A stretch of 64,000 nucleotides of DNA from Ignavibacteriota bacterium. Lineage in GTDB: Bacteria; Bacteroidota; Ignavibacteria; UBA10030; CAVZMI01. A program made the translations under genes and the position numbers. Under the pieces are notes generated by a model. It was given only the letters and a program-made list of their open reading frames with translations. It was not told the origin of the DNA and made no database searches. The first letter of the stretch is position 1. Every line of letters starts with the position of its first letter. This document shows, piece after piece, positions 19,168-56,265 of this stretch. The stretch is taken from contig CAVZMI010000038.1 of NCBI GenBank assembly GCA_963776275.1, positions 37,239 through 101,238 on the forward strand, read 5' to 3'.

Positions 19168-20418
19168 GTGAGGGTTGTTCATCTCAGTACAGATGATATA
19201 CAAGGTGGAGCGGCGATTGCTGCTTTTCGGATACATCGCGGTCTATGTGAAGCGGGTATTGATTCGGTCATGCTTGTCGGAAAAAAGCTGACCGAGGATG
19301 TTCGTGTGATTTGTTCGACATCACGTTTTCATGAAGGGATGCGGATCATCCGGCGGAATATTGATTCGATCCCTTTTCGTTTTTATAAACGCCGCTGGTC
19401 GCTCGGATGGCTGCCGTCAACCATCCATCGACGCATAAATGAATTACACCCCGATATAGTTCATATCCATCTTGTCTCCGACGGTTTTCTTCCTCTCCGG
19501 TTATTGCAGAAATTAAAAATCCCGATTGTATGGACGATGCACGATATGTGGGCATTCACAGGAGGATGTCACTACAGCAGCAATTGCACACGATATACTC
19601 AGAAGTGCGGAGCTTGTCCCCAATTATACTCACATCGTGAATCGGATCTGACACGGTTTGGATGGTCGATGAAGGCATCAGCCGTGAAGAAGCTGAATAT
19701 GACCGTGGTTGGTCCGAGCCTCTGGATGGCCCAATGTGCTCAAAGCAGTAGTGTCTTTCAACATGTATCCGTAATGAATATTCCCTATGGCCTTGACCTG
19801 AAGGAATTCAAACCTATCGATCAGACCACAGCCCGTACCATTCTGGGTCTCCCAAAAGATAAACGGTTACTTCTGTTCGGCGGTATGAGTCCCACCGATG
19901 ACCCGAGAAAAGGATTTCGACAGCTGATCGAAGCGTTACAGAATGATGAGATCCGGAAGAAAATGAGCGATGTCGAGGTAATCATTTTTGGGGCTTCGCA
20001 GTTGAATTCGCAATTATCTCTTCCGCTGAAAACTCATTTTATGGGTCGTGTCCACGATACAAGCAGCCTGAACCTCATCTACTCAGCTTCGGATGCATTC
20101 GTTGCTCCTTCGCTTGAAGAGAATCTTGCCAATACAGTACTTGAGTCCCTTGCCAGCGGTACGCCAGTCATTGCATTCCGCATCGGCGGTATGCCCGACA
20201 TGATCAGGCACAATGAGAATGGATATCTCGCTGCTCCACTCGATCCGGCAGATCTCGCAATGGGGATCAACTGGGTGTTATCTGAAAAGAATCGCCTTGA
20301 GAAACTCCGGATAAATGCACGACGCACGATCGAAGAGAAGTTCGATATCCGAGATGTTGCACGGCAGTATAGTGAATTGTACTCTCAAATGTCGTCAGTA
20401 ACAGTCCCCTCTCTCTGA
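19168..20418 (+). CDS. Glycosyltransferase family 4 (WcaC-like)
   Basis: GGAAIAA, WTMHDMWAFTGGCHY, ENLANTVLESLASGTPV. Confidence 0.9.
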   Translation: MRVVHLSTDDIQGGAAIAAFRIHRGLCEAGIDSVMLVGKKLTEDVRVICSTSRFHEGMRIIRRNIDSIPFRFYKRRWSLGWLPSTIHRRINELHPDIVHIHLVSDGFLPLRLLQKLKIPIVWTMHDMWAFTGGCHYSSNCTRYTQKCGACPQLYSHRESDLTRFGWSMKASAVKKLNMTVVGPSLWMAQCAQSSSVFQHVSVMNIPYGLDLKEFKPIDQTTARTILGLPKDKRLLLFGGMSPTDDPRKGFRQLIEALQNDEIRKKMSDVEVIIFGASQLNSQLSLPLKTHFMGRVHDTSSLNLIYSASDAFVAPSLEENLANTVLESLASGTPVIAFRIGGMPDMIRHNENGYLAAPLDPADLAMGINWVLSEKNRLEKLRINARRTIEEKFDIRDVARQYSELYSQMSSVTVPSL

Positions 20419-20740
20419 GAGGGGCGTCGTCCTGAGCGAGTCCCGCCGGACTTGTCCCGAAGTTCATCGAGGGATGGCGGGACGAGTCGAAGGATGGTCG
20501 CCGTAGGGAGGGCGGGGTGTGTTAGATGGCGCTTTATGACACACCCCTATGCTTCCCCTCTCAAGAGGGGAATATTTTCTTTTTTTCAATGTTCCGTTAT
20601 CTTCATTCGAAATAATTATTTGAGCTTGGTATTTATAACAGTTGAGATAATAACAGTCCCCTCTCTTTGAGAGGGGTGGTCGCCTACGGCGACCGGGGTG
20701 TGTAAGAGAGTGCTTTATCACACACCCTCTCCATAGAGGT
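20403..20740 (-). mobile_element. Non-autonomous, internally deleted copy of the DUF559 repeat cassette at 49723-50440
   Basis: Reverse complement aligns by eye to the left repeat, the last ~50 nt of the DUF559 ORF (YKYQAQIIISNEDNGT vs YEYQAQMIISDVENET) and the right repeat including its CCTTCGACTC..TCGCTCAGGAC insert. Confidence 0.8.
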
Positions 20741-20802
20741 GTGTTTTCGATTTTCTTATATCAGGTTTTTTCTCAGTCAATTTAATTGTTAAAACCCTCG
20801 CA

Positions 20803-47852: not shown

Positions 47853-48963
47853 AGAATATCGTCCATACGGCGATCGTTACATTAATCAAATACCTGCGGC
47901 CGGTTCATGCAATTGATCCGGAACGAATTGCCTGTATAGAACTTAGCCGCATGGGTGATATTCTGGCGATGCTGCCGGCGCTCCGATTGCTGCGGACGAA
48001 TTTCCCCTCATCCGAAATTATTGTAGTCGTTCAACAATCTTATGCAGAACTTTTCCGGCGAATCCGGGTTGCAGATGAGGTGATCGGCATTGAGAAACGC
48101 AGGATCATTCATACGATCGACGCTCTTCGTAAGCGTGATGTCACGCTGACCTGCAGCATGAGTCCTGCGACGACGAATGCGTTATGTGCATTATTCGGGG
48201 CAAAATCCAGTATTGGATATCTGGGACCGCCGCGAACACTCCCGGGTATTCTAGATAAAAGCGTGGTATCCGGAATCGGTGCAGAGGTTATCCGGCAGGA
48301 ATATTTCAAGGAAAATATCTATCAACGGGGGGTAAAGATCTGTCGTGCGTTACGAATTCCCGTTGAACCGCTACAGGCTATCATAACAACCGATGTCGAT
48401 TGGGAACACTCGTCGCTTGATGTATTACGCTCGCTTGATTTGGCAATCCGTTCTGCCTACATTATTTTACATCCGCTTGCGGGATGGAAATATCGATCGT
48501 GGCCGGGTGATCAATGGAATCGATTGATCGAAAAAATTGTCCGGAATACATTGTTCGAATGTGTTCTAATTTCATCAAGCACTGAACGGAAGCAGCTTGA
48601 ACAAATCGTACAAAAGACACCACGGGTGCATTACGCATCCGGTCTTCCGATGGAGCATCTGGCCGTACTAATAAAGCGAAGTGCTGGATTTGTGGGGAAT
48701 GATTCGGTCCGCTCCACATGGCTGCAGCGCTCGGCACGCCGGTTATCGGATTGTTCGGCCCTGCAGCTCCGGTCTTCACGGCACCGCTCAACGGAAACGG
48801 CTTTTATTTTTATCAACAGTTGGAATGCAGTCCCTGTAATCAACGCAGATGTATCAGGCCCCATGATTCATGCATGATGCAGTTGAATCCCGATTCAATC
48901 TTTGAAACGGTTGAAAAACTCTTTGGCAAGACATCCGTTCAGGCGGGAGAACACAATACCTGA
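47849..48963 (+). CDS. Glycosyltransferase family 9, frameshifted near 48705
   Basis: RMGDI, HPLAGWKYRSW, GNDS in one frame, then (G)PLHMAAALGTP..FGP and CSPC in the next. Confidence 0.85.
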
Positions 48964-49696
48964 AGTCGACATCCTTGGAGTCCGCGTTCATCGGGTCTCC
49001 TCGGCCGATATCCAGTCGATAATCCTGAAAAGAATCCGAGAGAAAGAACGCGGATTGTTTTTGTATGTCCATTTGCATTCAATAAATCTGGCTCAGAGAG
49101 ACGGTGAGCTGCGGGACGCGCTTAATTCTGCATCGATTACCTATTGCGACGGCGAGGGAGTGCGAATCGGTGCCCGGATACTCGGCCAATCTCTTCCCGA
49201 GCGAATTCCATTGACGCGATGGATCTACCCCTTCCTTGATTTTTGCGCTCGTAATAATTTATCTGTTTATTGTGTGGGAACGGAGCAGAGGATCATTCGC
49301 CGTGCGGTCGAAATGTTGCACGATCGTGTTCCGACATTAAATATTGCGGGATATCATGATGGATATTTTCACACAACGGGAGAGGGAACGCGCGGGGTAC
49401 TTCAGGATATCCAACGCGCTCATCCGAATGTTCTCATAGTCGGAATGGGGATGCCGCGGCAGGAATTATGGATCCGCGACCATTGGGATGATCTTCATGC
49501 AGACATTATTCTGACTGCAGGTTCCTGCTTCGATTATATCGCCGGTGAAAAACAGACCTGTCCGGCATGGATGGCAGATCATGGGCTTGAGTGGCTTCAT
49601 CGTTTGCTGCGAGAGCCCCGCCATGTCTGGAGACGCTATCTTGTTGGAATACCCGTATTTCTTATTCGAGTACTCAGACAGCGAAGCAGGTTATAA
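48956..49696 (+). CDS. WecB/TagA/CpsF (WecG) glycosyltransferase; start uncertain (48902 TTG or 48956 ATA)
   Basis: CDGEG, GYHDGYF, VGMGMPRQELW, GLEWLHRL.REP..WRRYL. Confidence 0.9.
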   Translation: MPEVDILGVRVHRVSSADIQSIILKRIREKERGLFLYVHLHSINLAQRDGELRDALNSASITYCDGEGVRIGARILGQSLPERIPLTRWIYPFLDFCARNNLSVYCVGTEQRIIRRAVEMLHDRVPTLNIAGYHDGYFHTTGEGTRGVLQDIQRAHPNVLIVGMGMPRQELWIRDHWDDLHADIILTAGSCFDYIAGEKQTCPAWMADHGLEWLHRLLREPRHVWRRYLVGIPVFLIRVLRQRSRL

Positions 49697-49722
49697 ATAA
49701 TTCGGACTTGTCCAAAATAAGA

Positions 49723-49860
49723 AGAAAACGAACCATAGAAAAAAAAGAATGAAAATATTCCCCTCTTGAGAGGGGAAGCAAAGGGGTGTGTGATAAAGCG
49801 TGATCGAACACACCCCGGTCGCCTTGCGGCGACCACCCCTCTCATAGAGAGGGGACTATT
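49723..49860 (+). repeat. Left multi-hairpin direct repeat of DUF559 cassette
   Basis: TCCCCTCTTGAGAGGGGA; GGGGTGTGT..ACACACCCC; GGTCGCC..GGCGACC; CCCCTCTC..GAGAGGGG. Confidence 0.85.
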
Positions 49861-49866
49861 ATAATC

Positions 49867-50280
49867 ATGACCATTATGAAAAAATTAATATATTACAATC
49901 CCAGATTAAAAGAATTAGCCAGGAGACTTCGTAATAGCAGCACTCTTTCCGAAATTCTGCTTTGGAATGAACTCAAAGGGAAGAAGATCCGTGGTTACGA
50001 TTTTCATCGGCAAAAACCGATTGAAAATTTTATCGTCGATTTCTATTGTCCACGGTTAAATCTGGCTATTGAGATCGATGGTGAAAGTCATTTTGCAAAT
50101 GAAATAAAAGATAAGACCCGGCAAAAAGACATTGAATCGCTCGGTATCAACTTTCTTCGATTTGACGATTTAGAAATAAAGAGGGATATGGAAGGAGTAC
50201 TCAAATCTATCGAGGAATGGATTGAGAATTACGAATATCAAGCTCAAATGATTATTTCAGATGTAGAAAACGAAACATAA
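49867..50280 (+). CDS. DUF559 / Vsr-like PD-(D/E)xK endonuclease domain protein
   Basis: ARRLRNSSTLSEILLWNELK, FHRQKPI..FIVDFYC..LAIEIDGESH, LGINFLRF. Confidence 0.9.
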   Translation: MTIMKKLIYYNPRLKELARRLRNSSTLSEILLWNELKGKKIRGYDFHRQKPIENFIVDFYCPRLNLAIEIDGESHFANEIKDKTRQKDIESLGINFLRFDDLEIKRDMEGVLKSIEEWIENYEYQAQMIISDVENET

Positions 50281-50440
50281 AAAAATGAAAACACTCCCCT
50301 CTTGAGAGGGGAGGCGGAGGGGTGTGTGATAAGGCGCCATCGGACACACCCCGGTCGCCTTGCGGCGACCATCCTTCGACTCATTCCGCCTTCGGCGGAA
50401 TTCGCTCAGGACGGTGCCCTTCTCAAAGAGAGGGGACTGG
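50265..50440 (+). repeat. Right multi-hairpin direct repeat of DUF559 cassette with ~44 nt nested palindromic insert (50372-50415)
   Basis: Same four hairpins as the left repeat, plus CCTTCGACTC-ATTCCGCC ttc GGCGGAAT-TCGCTCAGGAC. Confidence 0.85.
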
Positions 50441-50515
50441 TAATAGTAAAGGCAGATTATAACTGCCATAATAGCTTGTTGGATGGTAATGGAAAAACAT
50501 AATTCATATAGGGCT

Positions 50516-53500
50516 ATGAAAACAGCATTTCAATGTTTTCTCGTGTTGTGTCTGGGAATACATATCTGCGGTGCACAACCGGCGCGGCAGTTCAATCTGC
50601 TGGCACAAACCGACCGCAGCGTTGATATCAGTTTTAAATCGCCACAGTATCTCCCTAGATCTATCATCATCGATGGCCGGGCAGCGCGTCTGTTTGAAGG
50701 AAAATACGCAACAACGCTTGAACGCGGTGTCCCACAGCTGCCGGTGTGTGGAACCCTGATTGCCCTTCCACCCGATGCGTCAACGATGAAACCGACACTC
50801 GAGATTATCGAACTTCAGCAATCATCTGAACCGGGAGGATTCGTCGCTCCTACTCCACGTGAACACCGGTTGGATAGCCTTCAGGTTCAATATTCGTACG
50901 AGCCGTCACCGGCAGTCTATAATCGTAATGCGTTTTATCCTGATCAGATTGTTGCACTTGGATCGCCAACTCTTCTCCGACATCAGCGTGTGGTAAATCT
51001 TACCATTCATCCGCTTCAATATAATCCCGTTACAGGCGAAATCAAAAGGGTGACCAAATTGGTTGTACGGGTTCATTTCGGGAATACGGCAAATCTCAAA
51101 ATGCCGTTGACACAACATGTCACCGCCGATCCTGCATTCGAAGATTTGTATCGCGAAACTATCCTCAATGCGTCCCAGGCTGCCTCATGGCAGATCGCTT
51201 CGCCACCTCGGATGGCAGCTGATTCGCTTCGGGATTGGTTCCGCCCTTATCCTGCCTTTGCGAAATTATCAGTTGTGAATGATGGAATTTATACAATAAC
51301 AGGACAACAGCTGCGAGGTGCCGGCATCCCGCTCGATGGTGTTGATCCGAAGACAATTAAAATTTTTTATTGCGGGAAGGAGATACCGATACTTGTAAAA
51401 GGTGAACTGGATGGAAAACTTGATTCGGCGGATGTGATCGAATTCTATGGTCTGCAAAATAGAGGTGCGAATGGGGCATTCCTTAGTGAATATACGGATA
51501 CGAATTCGTACTGGCTGGCATGGGGAAGCGGCAATGGTGTACGGATGATCGATAATCAAAATGCCACAGATACATCGCTCACGGTGGTGCCCGTTATATC
51601 ATGCGGTTCAGCATTTTGAGCAAGATCAAAATTATTATTGGGGTATCAATGATTATAATATCAATGATATTAGGAGAGTTCCGAGCGAGGGGTGGTACTG
51701 GACAAGTTTTTTACCGGGAGGTGGTGTTGCACAATTTCCATTCTCGCTGCCTGATGTCGATCCGGCTCATGATGCCGTACTCCGTATCCATCTTGGAGGG
51801 ATGACCGGATATTTTTCGACACCCGATCATCGATCCCGGATTTCTGTGAACGGAACAGTCATAGGGACTGTCGAATTCAATGGAAACCGAGATACCATCG
51901 CAGTTTTTTCAATACCCGCGCATATCCTTCTCTCCGGAACGAACATGATCGGGATAGAGTCTTTGGTTACAACATCAGATCCGAATGAATTTTATCTTGA
52001 TTGGTTTGAAATCGAGGGAAATTTCTCGTTTGTCGCTCACGATAACTCTCTAGCATTCTCTTCCGTTTCCGGCCCGGCGCGGTATGTCATCGGTGGAATA
52101 ACCGACTCGACTGTCTCTGTCTACGATCTGACCGCAGGCCGCACTCTCGAAAACATCACCGTTGCACAGAGCGGCACGAATTTTCAAGTCTCGTTCAATA
52201 CAAATGAAAACATCCCGCATCAATTTATCGTAATCGGTGAATCGGCAAAGAAGGTTCCGGTAAAAATTGAACAGAAAATATTCAAAGATATCCGTGCGAA
52301 TTCATCGGGAGCCGATTACATCATCATAACACACTCCGCATTTCGTTCCGCTGCAGATCGTCTTGCACAGCAACGGCATACGGAAAATTCCTTTCGGACA
52401 GCGGTCATTGACGTACAGGATATTTATGATGAATTTAATTACGGAGTATTCGCGCCTGAACCAATCAAGGATTTCATCCGGTATGCATATTCACAGTGGC
52501 CGCCGCCGGCTCCCGCATATCTTGTGATGTTCGGAGATGCGATCTGGGATTTCCGGCATATCCTTTCCGATACGCATAAGACGAATTTTGTTCCTGCCTA
52601 TGGATGTCCTCCGACAGATAACTGGTACGTTAGTTTTGATCAGGATGAGATTATTCCTTCGCTTTATGTCGGGCGTATTCCGGTTGAGAACCTTACAATA
52701 GCGAACGATTATGTAGATAAGCTTATCGAATATGACAATTACCAGTTGGGAAATTGGAACAAGCGGTTTTTGTTTATCTCAGGAGGGAATACCGATGTCG
52801 AAAAACACTCGTTCGATGGTCAGTCGATGGATTTTATCGGTCGCTTTGTCGTACCTCCTCCCATTGCTGGCATCGCAGATACCATAATGAAAACAACAAG
52901 TTCGGTTGTGGATGGGGAACATAAAGATCGCATCAGAGCAATTTATAATGAAGGTGTTGTGTTTTCTAATTTTATCGGTCATTCCGGCGGAAGATTCTGG
53001 GCTGTAGATGCCGGAGACCCGGCAACGTTGCAGAATGCCGGGAAATATGTTTTCGGTTCAAGTGTAAGCTGTAACGTCGGTTTTTTTGCCGATAACCGAT
53101 CGAATGTATATTCCGAGGATTTTATTTTTGCGCATCGTGCAGGTGCAATTGCATTCTGGGCGGGAGCAGGATTCAGCAGTTACTCGCTCGGTAGTGTTGT
53201 TACCGAATTCTTCCTGTCAGGAGTCGCAAAAGACACACTGCGTGATCTGGGAAAATTGACAACACTTGCACGCATCGGCCTCTGGACGCATTACGGTCCT
53301 TCCGATAAAATTACACCGGGCGTCAATCTCTACCCGTTGATTGGTGATCCTGCGACGCAGCTGGCGATTCCCCGGATACCCGATCTCGAGATCGCTTCGA
53401 GTGATATTCGTACAGAACCCGTCATACCGATCGAATCGGATTCAGCCGTTACTGTTTTCATTCGGCTGAGAAATTTCGGACTGGCAACAGCCGACAGTGT

Positions 53501-55879
53501 GCAAATTCACGTAGCCGATCTCTATCAAAACATGACATACGACCTCGGCACGATTTCGCTTCCGTCGGTCGGATATGCAGATTCGTTGGTGTTTCCCTGG
53601 AGGGTGAAAGGGAAAGCGGGTTCTCATTTGCTTACAGTTACGATTGATCCGGCGAATTTAATTTCCGAGGTGCGGGAAGACAACAATATTGCAGCACTGG
53701 CAGTGATGGTCGCTCCAACGAGCCTTTCTCCACTGTCACCTCTTCCCTATGGAGTTGTACCGGCAGGACCAGTTCAATTGCGAGTGACAGATCCACCCGG
53801 TGATGTTCCCGGAGGGCTGCAATTTCTTTTTGAAGTTGATACCTCAAATACATTCTCAAGTTCTCAAAAAACATCTTCGCCTCCAGTGCCTGAAGGCATC
53901 GCGGCGACCGGATGGATTACTCAAGCACTGCAACCCGGCATATATTATTGGAGAGCACGCACATATGACGGTTCTGCATATGGTGTCTGGATGAATAGCG
54001 CGTTTACGGTCTCTTCAACGATTGTGCCGAATGTGTTCCGGTGGCAGCAGCAATTCCCGTCCCTTGGAGGCGAATCTGTTTTTTCATCGACGATTCCAAT
54101 TGATAGTGGCGCCGTTCTTATACAGCAACAGCCGACGAAACTTTTTTACCGCGCTCTTGGTGCACGCGATAATACCGATAAAGATTATTATACCATAGCA
54201 CGAATTGATAACCAGACGATAACGGCTTACTGGTGGGAAGTGGGTGGAGGATTCATCGTTGTCGATGTCGATGAGAAGAGCGGAAATTACCGCTATGGGA
54301 CATTTGACAATTACAGCGAATATTTCCCGGATTCCATGGTCACGTATCTCGAATCGATTCCCACGGGACATTATGTCATGATGGGGACTATTTACCGGGG
54401 CAAAACCAATGTCTCAGAAGCTCTTTATCAGGAAATAGAGAAACTCGGATCGACAATGATACGGCAGGTGGTCGATTTTGATGCATGGTGCTTTATCGGG
54501 AGAAGAACTTCAGGCGGGGGAGTAAAAATTGTAGAAGAGCACAGTCAGACTGACTCTGCAGTTGTCGCGTATGAAATTCCCAACATTTATCGTGTCCTTA
54601 AAGGGAGTATTGAATCATCTCAGATCGGACCGGTTCGTCAGTGGTCAAAAGTTGCGTGGAGCGGTACAGCCCAGCCGTCGGTGAGCGGAATTATGGTTCA
54701 AGTACTCGGAGACCGTGGAACGAGTATTGATACTCTGCTTACATCGAGGAATGCAATGGATTCTCTTGATATTCATACCGTTGATCAACGTCTCTATCCA
54801 AAGCTCCGCCTCCTTGCAACGCTCGAGAGCTTTACGGGCGACCAGACTCCTCGATTTTCCGGGTGGCGCGTCGACTTCGTGCCATCCCCTGATCTTGCTA
54901 TCGGATCACAAACAATCAAAGTAGGCGCCGATACAGTGACGGAGGGGAATTCTGTTGATGTCGATCTCGATGTCTATAACATCGGTAATGGTGCGGCGGA
55001 TTCGATAAAAGTCCGACTTATTCGAACCGGACTGAACAATGTTCCGGTGATTGTCGACGAGAAAATAATTGATACACTACCGCCACTTCAATCTCAAAGA
55101 GTGCACTTTACACTGAGTACCGCCGGAATTACCGGCAGGCAACAGCTCAAATGCGAAGTGCAGTCGCTTGGCGTGGTTGATCAATATGAATTCGACAATA
55201 TTGCGCTCGCACAATTTACCGTACGCGGTGATTCCCTCCAGCCGAATATGGCGGTGACCTTCGACGGTGTAGAAATTGTCGATGGCGATTATGTGAGACC
55301 TGCGCCACAGATTCTTGTCACAATGAATGATAACACGGTATTCATGCCGGCTGATACGTCAACGATCTCAATTGCACTCGATACTAAAAGGATACCGTAC
55401 GCGAATAACCCGTCGCTGAATTTCACTCCACTTCCATCAGGCGGGGCACAGGCTTCTTCACACCGACCCTCAGCGATGGCGATCATACGATGAAGATCGA
55501 GGCGCACGATATCGCCGGGAATAACGCCGACAATCAAGGATCACGGACCATATCTTTTGTAGTCCAGGGTCAACAGCAGCTTCTGAACGTTTTAAATTTC
55601 CCCAATCCGTTTGCGACAGAGACGTATTTTACATTCAACTATACGGGCTCACAGCCACCGGAGGAGGCTTCGATAAAAATATTTACAGTAGCCGGACGAT
55701 TGATAAGATCAATTAAGAGTTATGGATCGGATTTACGGATCGGTTTTAATCGCATCGCCTGGGATGGAAGGGATAATGAAGGAGACGAAATCGGCAACGG
55801 CGTATATTTCTATATTCTATCGGTTCGCGCGGGAGATCAGACAGATCAGGCAAAAGGAACCGTGGCGAAGGTGCGGTAG
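50516..55879 (+). CDS. Large C25 cysteine peptidase (gingipain/PorU-like) with propeptide, CARDB-like domains and FlgD/T9SS C-terminus; frameshifts near 51592 and 55455
   Basis: Propeptide (GVPQLP, PLQYNP), ADYIIITH, DIYDEFNYG, GRIP, catalytic FIGH and SCNVG, LIGDP, EVREDNN, NFPNPF..WDGRD..NGVYFY. Confidence 0.85.
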
Positions 55880-55936
55880 GAGTCAAGCAAGTACTATGAT
55901 GTCGAGTATCTGGATTTTCTAAACATTCAGTTTGTT

Positions 55937-56201
55937 GGTAGGTCGCCCCTAATGGGGCTACAAATAGGCTACCCCTGACGGGGTATCCTGAAATGGCAGT
56001 TGATTTTTCACAAGCTCGTTTTCTTGTCGCTACTCCTGACGGAGTATCCCGATATGGCGGTTTTATTTGTGGGTTTTCTATTGATAATCGTAGAACAGTT
56101 TTAAACAAGAAACAGAATTCTCTTTAGTTCCGTAGGGACGGCCTATTGGTAAATTTTCGATAACGAAATATTAATTCCAAGCTCCGTAGGAGCGGCCTAT
56201 T
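55937..56201. repeat. Cluster of CCCCT(N)ACGGGG / CTCCGTAGGAG REP-like palindromes in both orientations
   Basis: gcccctaatggggc, acccctgacggggt, actcctgacggagt, ttccgtagggacggcctat, gctccgtaggagcggcctat. Confidence 0.7.
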
Positions 56202-56265
56202 TCCAATCACCACAGTGATTCAACATACATCGGGATGGTAGAAGTGGCAGAGATTTCAAGGTAAT

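What the first reader, a model, noticed from the sequence alone, without database searches (positions are those of the whole stretch)
49723..50440. DUF559 nuclease between two multi-hairpin direct repeats: candidate transposase-free mobile or REP-amplifying element
Seen: a 137-aa DUF559/Vsr-like endonuclease gene lies between two direct repeats. Each repeat has an A-rich leader (AGAAAACGAA.CATA) and four hairpins: CCCCTCT-TG-AGAGGGG, GGGGTGTGT/ACACACCCC, GGTCGCC/GGCGACC and CCCCTCTC/GAGAGGGG. The right repeat begins inside the ORF's last codons. The cassette sits between a glycan gene and a protease gene with no functional link to either. Known: RAYT (HUH/IS200-like) transposases are flanked by, and disperse, their cognate REP palindromes; DUF559 is a PD-(D/E)xK-like family of unclear function. 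Inference: this is an analogous REP-plus-enzyme system built on a different nuclease fold, with the hairpins serving as DNA or RNA recognition substrates.
Basis: partly seen in the sequence, partly recalled or inferred. Interest (0 to 1): 0.82.

Follow-up and report, generated by a model that had tools for sequence, protein, structure and literature searches.

The report
Nuclease gene cassette with triplex-forming repeat ends
A small nuclease gene of unknown function (DUF559), flanked by folded DNA repeats of a long-known but unexplained type, has been inserted between two normally overlapping genes, and the same gene-plus-repeat unit recurs in many bacterial phyla, so it looks like an undescribed kind of selfish mobile DNA.

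Summary
A 137-aa DUF559 (Vsr-fold) nuclease gene at 49867..50280 lies between two direct copies of a multi-hairpin unit.

Each motif is a CCCCTCT/AGAGGGG hairpin plus a GGGGTGTGT third strand, with extra hairpins in the second loop.

- **It is an insertion.** In four other families of the order the wecG-like stop overlaps the C25 start by 4-8 nt.
- **A second site varies.** Window 20406-20756 holds unit, ORF-tail remnant, unit. The sister genome holds one solo unit there.
- **The pairing is general.** Across 109 homologous loci from at least 12 phyla, such hairpins are enriched about 7- to 60-fold beside the gene. Of 124 tested hairpins, 100 have a perfect triplex-rule third strand.
- **Repeat type follows the protein tree.**

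The best reading is a selfish DUF559/triplex-repeat cassette, with the nuclease probably acting on the folded repeats. The chemistry is not shown.

This genome shows no REP-like amplification: about 9 units and one intact gene.

Earlier notes of this scan report the same pairing on other DNA. My paper searches did not find it in print.

The parts
48902..49696 (+). wecG/tagA-type glycosyltransferase gene (left flank of the insertion)
   Evidence: PF03808 at E 1.6e-52. In G009, G005, G011 and G003 its stop overlaps the C25 start by 4-8 nt.
49723..49758 (+). A-rich leader of the left unit; resembles the last codons and stop of the DUF559 ORF
   Evidence: 90% identical to 50265-50285, which spans the real ORF end.
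49759..49791 (+). Left forward triplex motif: hairpin CCCCTCT-tg-AGAGGGG, a 7-nt loop, then third strand GGGGTGTGT
   Evidence: Read from the sequence. The third strand obeys C->G, T->T in 7 of 7 positions. Found by the rule-based finder (C38:86998).
49792..49807 (.). 16-nt spacer between the two third strands of the inverted pair
   Evidence: By the coordinates of TM numbers 1 and 2 in Table 1 of Holder 2015, the gap between that inverted E. coli pair works out at 16 nt.
49808..49854 (-). Left reverse triplex motif: ACACACCCC (complement of the third strand), hairpin GGTCGCC/GGCGACC inside loop 2, hairpin CCCCTCTC-ata-GAGAGGGG
   Evidence: C38:87074, 'rev'. 8 of 8 positions obey the rule on the minus strand.
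49867..50280 (+). DUF559 (Vsr-fold PD-(D/E)xK) nuclease gene, 137 aa
   Evidence: PF04480 at E 3.9e-28. AlphaFold2 pLDDT 84. Foldseek best matches are 3hrl and the homing endonuclease I-Bth0305I, 3r3p. dN/dS against G001 is 0.25.
50265..50294 (+). Leader of the right unit; overlaps the ORF's last five codons and its stop
50295..50327 (+). Right forward triplex motif (hairpin 50296-50311, third strand 50319-50327)
   Evidence: C38:87534.
50344..50435 (-). Right reverse triplex motif, long form. Loop 2 holds the GGTCGCC/GGCGACC hairpin (50353-50370) and an extra hairpin region (50371-50416). Hairpin CCCTTCTC/GAGAGGGG has one mismatch.
50483..55493 (+). C25 (gingipain-family) protease gene, right flank; split into two frames in this assembly
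   Evidence: PF08126 and PF01364. G001 has one frame of 1809 aa.
20658..20756 (-). Site 2, unit A: short form with a degenerate first hairpin
   Evidence: nhmmer E 1.1e-37.
20571..20631 (-). Site 2: remnant of the 3' end of a DUF559 ORF, plus the leader of unit B
   Evidence: Aligns with 50240-50294. Absent from the syntenic site of G001.
20406..20570 (-). Site 2, unit B: long form. Its outer hairpin supplies the last codons and stop of the GT4 gene 19168..20418.
   Evidence: (E 6.9e-48).

Best explanation
**What it is.** This is one copy of a widespread, apparently undescribed selfish cassette. It consists of a DUF559 (Vsr-fold) nuclease gene whose ends are intrastrand-triplex motifs. Each motif is a pyrimidine/purine hairpin followed by a G/T-rich block that can lie on the purine arm as a third strand. 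This is the BoxC/PIT/TM repeat class.

**Arrangement here.** The motifs form inverted pairs, and one complete pair sits on each side of the gene. That is why the flanks look like direct repeats.

**History.** The cassette was inserted into the overlapping wecG-C25 gene junction in the ancestor of this genus. It has since been inherited vertically, with the protein under purifying selection.

**Inferred mechanism (not shown).**
- The nuclease recognises the folded repeat (hairpin/triplex or cruciform) and nicks or cuts there.
- Break repair between repeat-bearing sites copies the gene in, giving unit-gene-unit.
- Recombination between the flanking units removes the gene again, leaving solo units that still carry the ORF's tail.
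- First insertion into a repeat-free site, as at wecG-C25, needs a further step that I cannot name.
For: **Shown.**
1. *Insertion.* The stop of wecG overlaps the start of C25 by 4, 4, 4 and 8 nt in G009, G005, G011 and G003. G000 and G001 have about 790 nt there.
2. *Indel bounded by units.* G000 site 2 reads unit, ORF-tail remnant, unit. G001 has one solo unit between the same flanks.
3. *Association.* In relatives, 45 hairpins lie in 11.6 kb of flank against 5 in 78.8 kb of the rest of the loci. In 80 loci of 12 named phyla the counts are 151 in 32.3 kb against 71 in 102.9 kb.
4. *Direct flank repeats.* They exceed the 99th percentile of cross-locus controls in 10 of 30 and 26 of 70 testable loci.
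5. *Triplex rule.* 100 of 124 hairpins have a perfect third strand within 60 nt, against 24 under the reversed rule.
6. *Co-variation.* Repeat type follows the protein tree.
7. *ORF tails.* The downstream repeat starts 4-56 nt inside the ORF in 8 of 12 loci examined, so upstream and solo units carry ORF tails.
8. *Fold.* The nearest structures are 3hrl and the dimeric homing endonuclease I-Bth0305I.
9. *Intact and conserved.* D58, E69 and H75 are invariant or nearly so, and dN/dS is 0.25.
10. *Distribution.* The gene is patchy (20 of 41 genomes), multi-copy in some, and often at contig ends.
11. *E. coli.* ycjD is followed by a duplicate of its own 3' end and a TM-ECO repeat.
Against: - No activity, cleavage site or movement is shown.
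- At site 1 the cassette diverges like its neighbours (95.3% against 95.9% and 94.2% DNA identity). There is no sign of recent mobility.
- The site-2 difference could be a plain deletion between direct repeats by host recombination.
- The empty wecG-C25 junctions hold no repeat. Homing into a pre-existing repeat therefore cannot explain the first insertion.
- This genome has only about 9 units and one intact gene.
- 24 of 109 loci show no motif on either side by my finder.
- The subject's order, reverse motif upstream and forward motif downstream, is the minority. Upstream motifs are forward or double in 54 loci against reverse in 9.
- A hydrolytic PD-(D/E)xK nuclease has no known strand-transfer chemistry.
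- Tree-label clustering can arise from co-inheritance alone.
Confidence: 0.5

Rival explanations
1. **Passive-cargo model.** The triplex/hairpin units are themselves the unstable, self-spreading DNA. They spread through replication stalling, template switching and host recombination. DUF559 is a passenger or a host-useful nuclease, for example one that processes stalled forks at such structures or acts like a restriction enzyme. It is kept next to its substrate but is not the mobilising enzyme.
For: - Holder et al. 2015 link TM repeats to local genomic instability without any mobility gene (passages).
- Solo units lie beside unrelated genes.
- The C18 solo site is replaced by other repeats in G001.
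- PADLOC gives a weak match to a type II methyl-directed restriction enzyme model, E 2.2e-10.
Against: - It does not explain why one protein family out of all genes sits between these repeats in 12 phyla, with repeat type tracking the protein clade.
- It does not explain why ORF tails are attached to solo and upstream units.
Confidence: 0.22
2. **The first reader's model.** DUF559 is a RAYT-like, transposase-free enzyme that itself excises, reinserts and amplifies the hairpin units (a REP/REPIN analogue).
For: - The gene is flanked by cognate repeats.
- The empty junctions without any repeat require de novo insertion of repeat-ended DNA.
- No Y1 transposase is linked to the repeats.
Against: - Copy number here is low: 14 motifs in 3.7 Mb.
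- The Vsr fold is a hydrolytic nuclease. No covalent-intermediate residue is known for it (established knowledge of the family).
- No target-site duplication is visible at site 1.
Confidence: 0.12
3. **RNA-level model.** The units are RNA elements of the DUF559 transcript, acting as 5'/3' stabilisers, terminators or translational controls rather than as DNA structures.
For: - At site 1 the cassette lies in the sense orientation inside an operon, so the units are probably transcribed.
- The first hairpin followed by a T-run scores as a terminator on the minus strand.
Against: - No Rfam family matches.
- The third-strand rule (C->G, T->T/A, antiparallel to the purine arm) is the DNA purine-motif triplex rule and is not explained by Watson-Crick RNA folding.
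- Solo units occur without any gene.
- Site 2 lies antisense to its flanking genes.
Confidence: 0.07
4. **Integron-like model.** This is a gene cassette moved in trans by a site-specific recombinase that recognises the folded units as attC-like sites.
For: Unit-gene-unit with direct repeats, solo units and tandem arrays resemble attC cassette arrays.
Against: - No integron integrase is found. The best TIGR02249 match scores 137.6 bits against a cut-off of 265.
- No recombinase gene lies beside either site.
- The same units travel with DUF559 across phyla.
Confidence: 0.04

Closest known systems
BoxC / PIT / TM-ECO intrastrand triplex repeats (Holder et al. 2015, PMC4666352; abstract and passages read)
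   Same: - C-rich arm, loop, complementary purine arm, second loop, then a G/T-rich third block that mirrors the purine arm.
- Often found as inverted pairs; a 16-nt gap is computed here and, from the Table 1 coordinates, for E. coli TM numbers 1 and 2.
- Intergenic and associated with variable loci.
- A TM-ECO copy follows the E. coli DUF559 gene ycjD.
   Different: - Arms are 7-8 nt, not 9.
- The sequence is CCCCTCT(C)/GGGGTGTG(T), not CCCTCNCCC/GGGNGAGGG.
- Loop 2 is 7 nt, or 19-65 nt holding extra hairpins, not 3 nt.
- The paper reports no linked mobility gene and has no occurrence of 'DUF559' or 'endonuclease' (term counts).
REP/REPIN elements and their RAYT (Y1 HUH) transposases
   Same: A single small enzyme gene is flanked by its cognate structured repeats. 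Solo repeats occur elsewhere in the genome. Repeat type tracks the enzyme lineage.
   Different: - The enzyme is a Vsr-fold PD-(D/E)xK nuclease, not a Y1 HUH transposase.
- The repeats are triplex motifs.
- Copy number here is low.
- The genome's own Y1_Tnp genes (9 matches) show no such repeats in the 5 loci checked.
EDxHD homing endonucleases (I-Bth0305I; Taylor et al. 2011, PMC3239194, passages read)
   Same: The Vsr-like catalytic fold: Foldseek E 1.7e-4, TM 0.80 over the target. It is a selfish nuclease gene that spreads by break repair. I-Bth0305I is a dimer on a pseudo-palindromic target.
   Different: - The subject is free-standing and intergenic, not inside an intron or intein.
- No Pfam family matched its N-terminal 13 residues, so no NUMOD-type DNA-binding region was found.
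- Sequence similarity is marginal (E 0.17).
- The proposed target is a repeat, not a unique gene.
Vsr very-short-patch repair endonuclease
   Same: The same superfamily. Pfam groups VSR, DUF559 and DUF2726 together (passage in PMC3424549). 1vsr appears at Foldseek rank 16.
   Different: No partner cytosine methyltransferase lies next to it. The match is weak (E 0.12). The gene is flanked by repeats and is horizontally mobile.
E. coli YcjD (NCBIfam NF007294)
   Same: A stand-alone DUF559 protein of similar length, with a TM repeat and a duplicated ORF tail downstream.
   Different: It scores 57.6 bits against an equivalog cut-off of 218, so it is not an ortholog.

Membership tests
DUF559 (PF04480) | Score above Pfam's gathering threshold over the whole domain | tested here: met
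   97.9 bits against 20.6; profile positions 3-108 of 109.
DUF559 (PF04480) | Vsr-like restriction-endonuclease fold with conserved acidic and His residues | tested here: met
   AlphaFold2 pLDDT 84.4. Foldseek gives 3hrl at E 5e-6 and 3r3p at E 1.7e-4. D58 is invariant; E69 and H75 are kept in at least 90% of 23 homologs.
YcjD equivalog (NF007294) | Score above NCBIfam's equivalog cut-off | tested here: not met
   57.6 bits against 218.
Intrastrand triplex motif repeats (class II purine motif; BoxC/PIT/TM) | Pyrimidine arm, loop, fully complementary purine arm | tested here: met
   Found at 49760-49775, 49836-49854 and 50296-50311. 50417-50435 has one mismatch.
Intrastrand triplex motif repeats (class II purine motif; BoxC/PIT/TM) | Third G/T-rich block giving G.G:C and T.A:T (or A.A:T) triplets antiparallel to the purine arm | tested here: met
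   7 of 7 and 8 of 8 positions in the four site-1 motifs. Across loci, 100 of 124 hairpins are perfect, against 24 under the reversed rule.
Intrastrand triplex motif repeats (class II purine motif; BoxC/PIT/TM) | The TM-ECO consensus CCCTCNCCC N3-6 GGGNGAGGG N3 GGGNGAGGG | tested here: not met
   Arm length, sequence and loop 2 all differ (against the pattern quoted). This is a variant of the class, not TM-ECO itself.
Intrastrand triplex motif repeats (class II purine motif; BoxC/PIT/TM) | Triplex actually forms (CD, NMR or footprinting) | not testable with these tools
   Only Watson-Crick folding could be computed.
REP/RAYT system | The enzyme is a Y1 HUH (TnpA-REP) transposase | tested here: not met
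   The gene is DUF559. Y1_Tnp genes lie elsewhere and lack these repeats in 0 of 5 loci checked.
REP/RAYT system | Many dispersed solo repeats cognate to those flanking the enzyme gene | tested here: not met
   About 9 units at 6 loci; 14 triplex motifs genome-wide.
EDxHD homing endonucleases | Encoded inside a group I intron or an intein | tested here: not met
   Intergenic and free-standing, between wecG and C25.
EDxHD homing endonucleases | Cleaves the gene-less allele and is copied in by repair | not testable with these tools
   Only the occupied and solo alleles could be compared.
Integron gene cassette | An integron integrase in the genome | tested here: not met
   Best TIGR02249 score is 137.6 bits against a cut-off of 265.
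Integron gene cassette | attC with R''/L''-L'/R' boxes (GTTRRRY) | not tested
   I did not scan for these boxes.

The most novel reading that the evidence does not exclude
DUF559 is the long-missing partner enzyme of the BoxC/PIT/TM triplex repeats. On this reading it is a structure-specific nuclease that recognises the folded triplex-hairpin pair and drives insertion, copying and loss of its own gene between such repeats. Together they would form a new class of mobile element, with no transposase or integrase and with triplex-forming ends. It would span at least 12 phyla and about 20,000 protein clusters, and solo TM repeats would be its footprints.
Probability: 0.35. Interest if true: 0.88.

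Novelty: new variant of a known kind. Interest (0 to 1): 0.72.

Why it matters
- **A function for a very large family.** DUF559 has 20,198 cluster representatives at E <= 0.001 in 1.84 billion and no assigned function.
- **A partner for an unexplained repeat.** The BoxC/TM triplex repeats have been known for decades, and are tied to genomic instability, without any enzyme linked to them (Holder 2015, passages).
- **A directly testable link.** A consistent physical and evolutionary link between the two can be tested by asking whether this nuclease cuts folded triplex-hairpin DNA and whether that moves the gene.
- **Practical consequences.** Such cassettes split operons, as with wecG-C25 here. 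They donate stop codons and tails to neighbouring genes, sit in frame inside other genes, and break assemblies.

Tried and rejected
- **Rfam.** No match at E <= 1 in 49000-51000. At gathering score, the window and three solo loci gave only a tRNA.
- **Homodimer prediction.** No verdict; not used as evidence.
- **Sequencing runs.** No RNA holder is listed. The laid runs are contigs only. One 60-kb contig of X1 is G001-like and spans the whole cassette. No joint skips the gene.
- **Site-2 synteny beyond the genus.** Flippase homologs are at most 34% identical, so the polarity of the site-2 indel stays open.
- **G010 gap.** The 2.2 kb between wecG and C25 holds two more ORFs of 365 and 382 aa that look like glycosyltransferase and heptosyltransferase genes by eye (no family search run), and I saw no mobile-element gene there.
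- **Wide scan with the 23-sequence alignment.** It failed because no stretch was conserved enough. I repeated it with 8 closer sequences.
- **Phages and plasmids.** 2 of 50,697 phage records and 37 of 72,556 plasmid records, mostly large replicons, hold a relative. They are not an obvious vehicle.
- **Chance origin of the hairpins.** Rejected by the fold z-scores and the enrichment figures.
- **RAYT or integron involvement.** Rejected as described above.
- **Literature.** Searches for 'DUF559' (25 papers), 'intrastrand triplex'/'BoxC' and 'ycjD'/'potential intrastrand triplex'/'PIT elements'/'Vsr-like' found no paper linking DUF559 to these repeats. The nearest hint is a table row in Milman et al. 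2023 (PMC9881135, one passage), where DUF559 proteins are enriched 14-fold near predicted inversions. I opened no supplements. Subscription journals are not covered.
Full report
**Observation.** The window holds, at 49867..50280 (+), a 137-aa ORF that matches Pfam DUF559 (PF04480) at E 3.9e-28. It lies between a wecG/tagA-type glycosyltransferase gene (48902..49696) and a C25 protease gene (from 50483).

Both flanks carry the same composite repeat. The stretch 49743-49841 is 88% identical to 50279-50377 over 99 nt, and the leader and the last hairpin are also repeated. The right copy begins inside the ORF's last codons.

The right copy has an extra hairpin region (50371-50416) and one mismatch in its last hairpin. 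Folded as single-stranded DNA, the units score z = -8.8 and -6.8, and none of 200 shuffles folds as well.

**What the repeat is.** I read the abstract and passages of PMC4666352 and tested the idea here.

In the left unit, the hairpin CCCCTCT-tg-AGAGGGG is followed after 7 nt by GGGGTGTGT. That block is the pyrimidine arm with C replaced by G. It is therefore a third strand that can lie antiparallel on the purine arm with G.G:C and T.A:T triplets.

After a further 16 nt the mirror image follows on the other strand: ACACACCCC, the GGTCGCC/GGCGACC hairpin, then CCCCTCTC-ata-GAGAGGGG. Their two third strands can also pair with each other, and the GGTCGCC hairpin (plus the extra one on the right) sits in loop 2.

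Holder et al. describe the same inverted pairs for E. coli TM-ECO. By my reading of their Table 1 coordinates, the gap in one of those pairs is also 16 nt.

The motif here is a variant, not TM-ECO itself. Its arms are 7-8 nt, its sequence differs, and loop 2 is longer.

**The genome.** A profile of the four window copies finds the following:
- four strong copies, two at site 1 and two at a second window site;
- three copies on contig 12;
- one on contig 18, found as two pieces;
- one on contig 23.

The five copies outside the window are decayed solo units that lie between unrelated genes. My rule-based finder counts 14 triplex motifs in 3.7 Mb. There is one good DUF559 gene and one weak match.

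The genome has nine Y1_Tnp matches, but the five loci I checked carry no such hairpins. No integron integrase reaches its cut-off. This genome therefore shows no REP-like amplification.

**Second site and sister genome.** At window 20406-20756 (minus strand) there is a short unit, then about 60 nt that align with the 3' end of the DUF559 ORF and its leader, then a long unit. The same-genus genome G001 has one complete solo unit at the syntenic place, between the same flanks.

This is a repeat-bounded presence/absence difference of the gene-bearing segment. I could not determine its polarity, because homologs outside the genus are too distant.

At site 1, G001 has the same cassette: 93% identical protein, dN/dS 0.25 from 19 differences in 405 nt, and DNA identity like that of the neighbouring genes. 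Both G001 units carry an extra hairpin in loop 2 of the forward motif. Both G000 units lack it. The two flanks therefore do not evolve independently.

**Empty site.** In G009, G005, G011 and G003, which belong to four other families of the order, the wecG-like stop overlaps the C25 start by 4, 4, 4 and 8 nt. In G010, two ORFs of 365 and 382 aa that look like further sugar-transferase genes lie between them.

The roughly 790 nt between the two genes in G000 and G001 is therefore an insertion into a tightly coupled gene pair. The empty junctions hold no repeat, so the cassette brought its repeats with it.

**Generality.** In 41 genomes of the order, 20 have a relative of the protein. Several copies occur in some genomes, often at contig ends.

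| Measure | 30 loci in relatives | 80 best of 596 relatives, 12 named phyla, 52-66% identity apart from G001's own record |
|---|---|---|
| Pyrimidine-arm hairpins in flanks | 45 in 11.6 kb (±200 nt) | 151 in 32.3 kb |
| Same hairpins in the rest of the loci | 5 in 78.8 kb | 71 in 102.9 kb |
| Loci with a hairpin beside the gene | 20 upstream, 17 downstream | 66 of 80 |
| Upstream and downstream flanks are direct repeats above the 99th percentile of cross-locus controls | 10 of 30 (713 control pairs) | 26 of 70 testable |

Further results over these loci:
- In 8 of the 12 strongest cases, the downstream repeat starts 4-56 nt inside the ORF. Upstream units therefore carry a copy of an ORF tail, as in the window.
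- Of 124 informative hairpins, 100 have a perfect triplex-rule third strand within 60 nt. Under the reversed rule the count is 24. The true rule beats the reversed rule in 84 cases, loses in 3 and ties in 37.
- On a tree of 93 proteins, the hairpin type changes 31 times. Shuffled labels give 48.9 on average, and at least 43 in every one of 200 shuffles. Co-inheritance alone could give this result.
- The usual order is forward motif, gene, reverse motif. Upstream motifs are forward or double in 54 loci and reverse in 9. The subject, with a whole inverted pair on each side, is in the minority.
- 24 of 109 loci show no motif by my finder.

**E. coli.** The DUF559 gene ycjD, next to fabI, is followed by a duplicate of its own 3' end and a TM-ECO repeat.

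**The protein.**
- AlphaFold2 gives a confident model, pLDDT 84.
- Its best structural matches are 3hrl (a Neisseria DUF559-like protein), the catalytic domain of the homing endonuclease I-Bth0305I, the AbaSI/PvuRts1I nuclease domains, and Vsr at rank 16.
- I-Bth0305I is a dimer that makes a double-strand break in a pseudo-palindromic target (passages of PMC3239194).
- The conserved acidic and histidine residues are kept.
- The family is very large: 20,198 cluster representatives at E <= 0.001.
- Of eight relatives printed, six have N- or C-terminal extensions that are translated repeats. One is embedded in frame in a 762-aa protein.

**Mechanism.**

*Shown:*
- The unit is an insertion.
- It is bounded by triplex-type repeats that travel with the gene across phyla.
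- It can be present or absent between repeats.
- Solo and upstream units keep ORF tails.
- The nuclease is intact and under purifying selection.

*Inferred:*
- The nuclease acts on the folded repeat.
- Break repair between repeat-bearing sites copies the gene in.
- Recombination between flanking units removes it.

*Open:* how the repeat-ended DNA enters a site without a repeat.

The rivals are a passive-cargo model, a true RAYT-like transposase role, RNA-level function, and an integron-like cassette. Each is listed with its own test.

**Literature and novelty.** Searches for DUF559, intrastrand triplex/BoxC, ycjD, PIT elements and Vsr-like found no paper linking DUF559 to these repeats. Holder et al. 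state that they found no mobility activities near TM-ECO (passage). A table row in Milman et al. 2023 lists DUF559 proteins as enriched near predicted inversions, which fits flanking inverted repeats.

Earlier notes of this scan report the same pairing in many other genomes. I treated them as leads and tested the triplex rule, the association and the E. coli case myself.

I rate this a new variant of a known kind: a selfish nuclease gene with cognate repeats, closest in logic to REP/RAYT and to free-standing homing endonuclease genes. The bolder reading is a new class of mobile element.

Noticed in passing
window 50483-55493: The C25 protease gene is split into two overlapping frames here (50483..51619 and 51561..55493). 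G001 has one open frame of 1809 aa. This is either a frameshift or an assembly error near 51560-51620, and possibly another near the 3' end.
   Followed up: partly
window 20406-20424 and ORF 19168..20418: The GT4 glycosyltransferase gene takes its last codons and its stop codon from the outer hairpin of the site-2 repeat unit. The G001 sequence suggests the same.
   Followed up: partly
L165 1978-3089 (G001:C13), compared with G000:C18:209465-209724: Between the proline dehydrogenase and OPT transporter genes, G000 has a decayed triplex-repeat unit. G001 instead has about 1.1 kb of three tandem copies of an unrelated repeat of about 350 nt, rich in small hairpins.
   Followed up: partly
G000:C12:47650-48000, 52600-52950 and 55850-56250 (L161): The three solo units on contig 12 are embedded in a longer repeat of about 300 nt with conserved sequence on both sides. 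They lie in intergenic regions next to genes for T9SS-tailed and TonB-receptor proteins. No Rfam match.
   Followed up: partly
L086, L100, L106, L120, L132, L140, L146: In seven loci (five named Cytophagales or Cyclobacteriaceae, one Ekhidna sp., one unclassified Bacteroidetes bacterium) the DUF559 frame runs on through translated repeats (…PPSRGE…PPSKGGKGG…) into the downstream host gene without a stop. In these cases the cassette sits in frame at a gene's 5' end.
   Followed up: partly
P0001, P0053: One relative holds three tandem DUF559 domains in a single 377-aa frame. Another is embedded in frame, between translated repeats, in a 762-aa protein that looks like a restriction-modification enzyme.
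   Followed up: no
L160 5000-5900 (E. coli K-12, ycjD-fabI): ycjD ends inside a partial repeat. It is followed by a duplicate of its own last 60 nt or so, then a full TM-ECO repeat upstream of fabI.
   Followed up: partly
L032 (G001 site 1) compared with window 49776-49783 and 50312-50319: Both flanking units of G001 carry the same extra hairpin of about 24 nt in loop 2 of the forward motif, and both G000 units lack it. This points to concerted change of the two flanks, or to repeated precise gain or loss of a hairpin module.
   Followed up: partly
G000 contigs 23, 27, 28 and 12 (L168-L172): The genome holds nine Y1_Tnp (IS200/RAYT-type) matches, three or four of them full length. None of the five loci checked has the triplex repeats.
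   Followed up: partly
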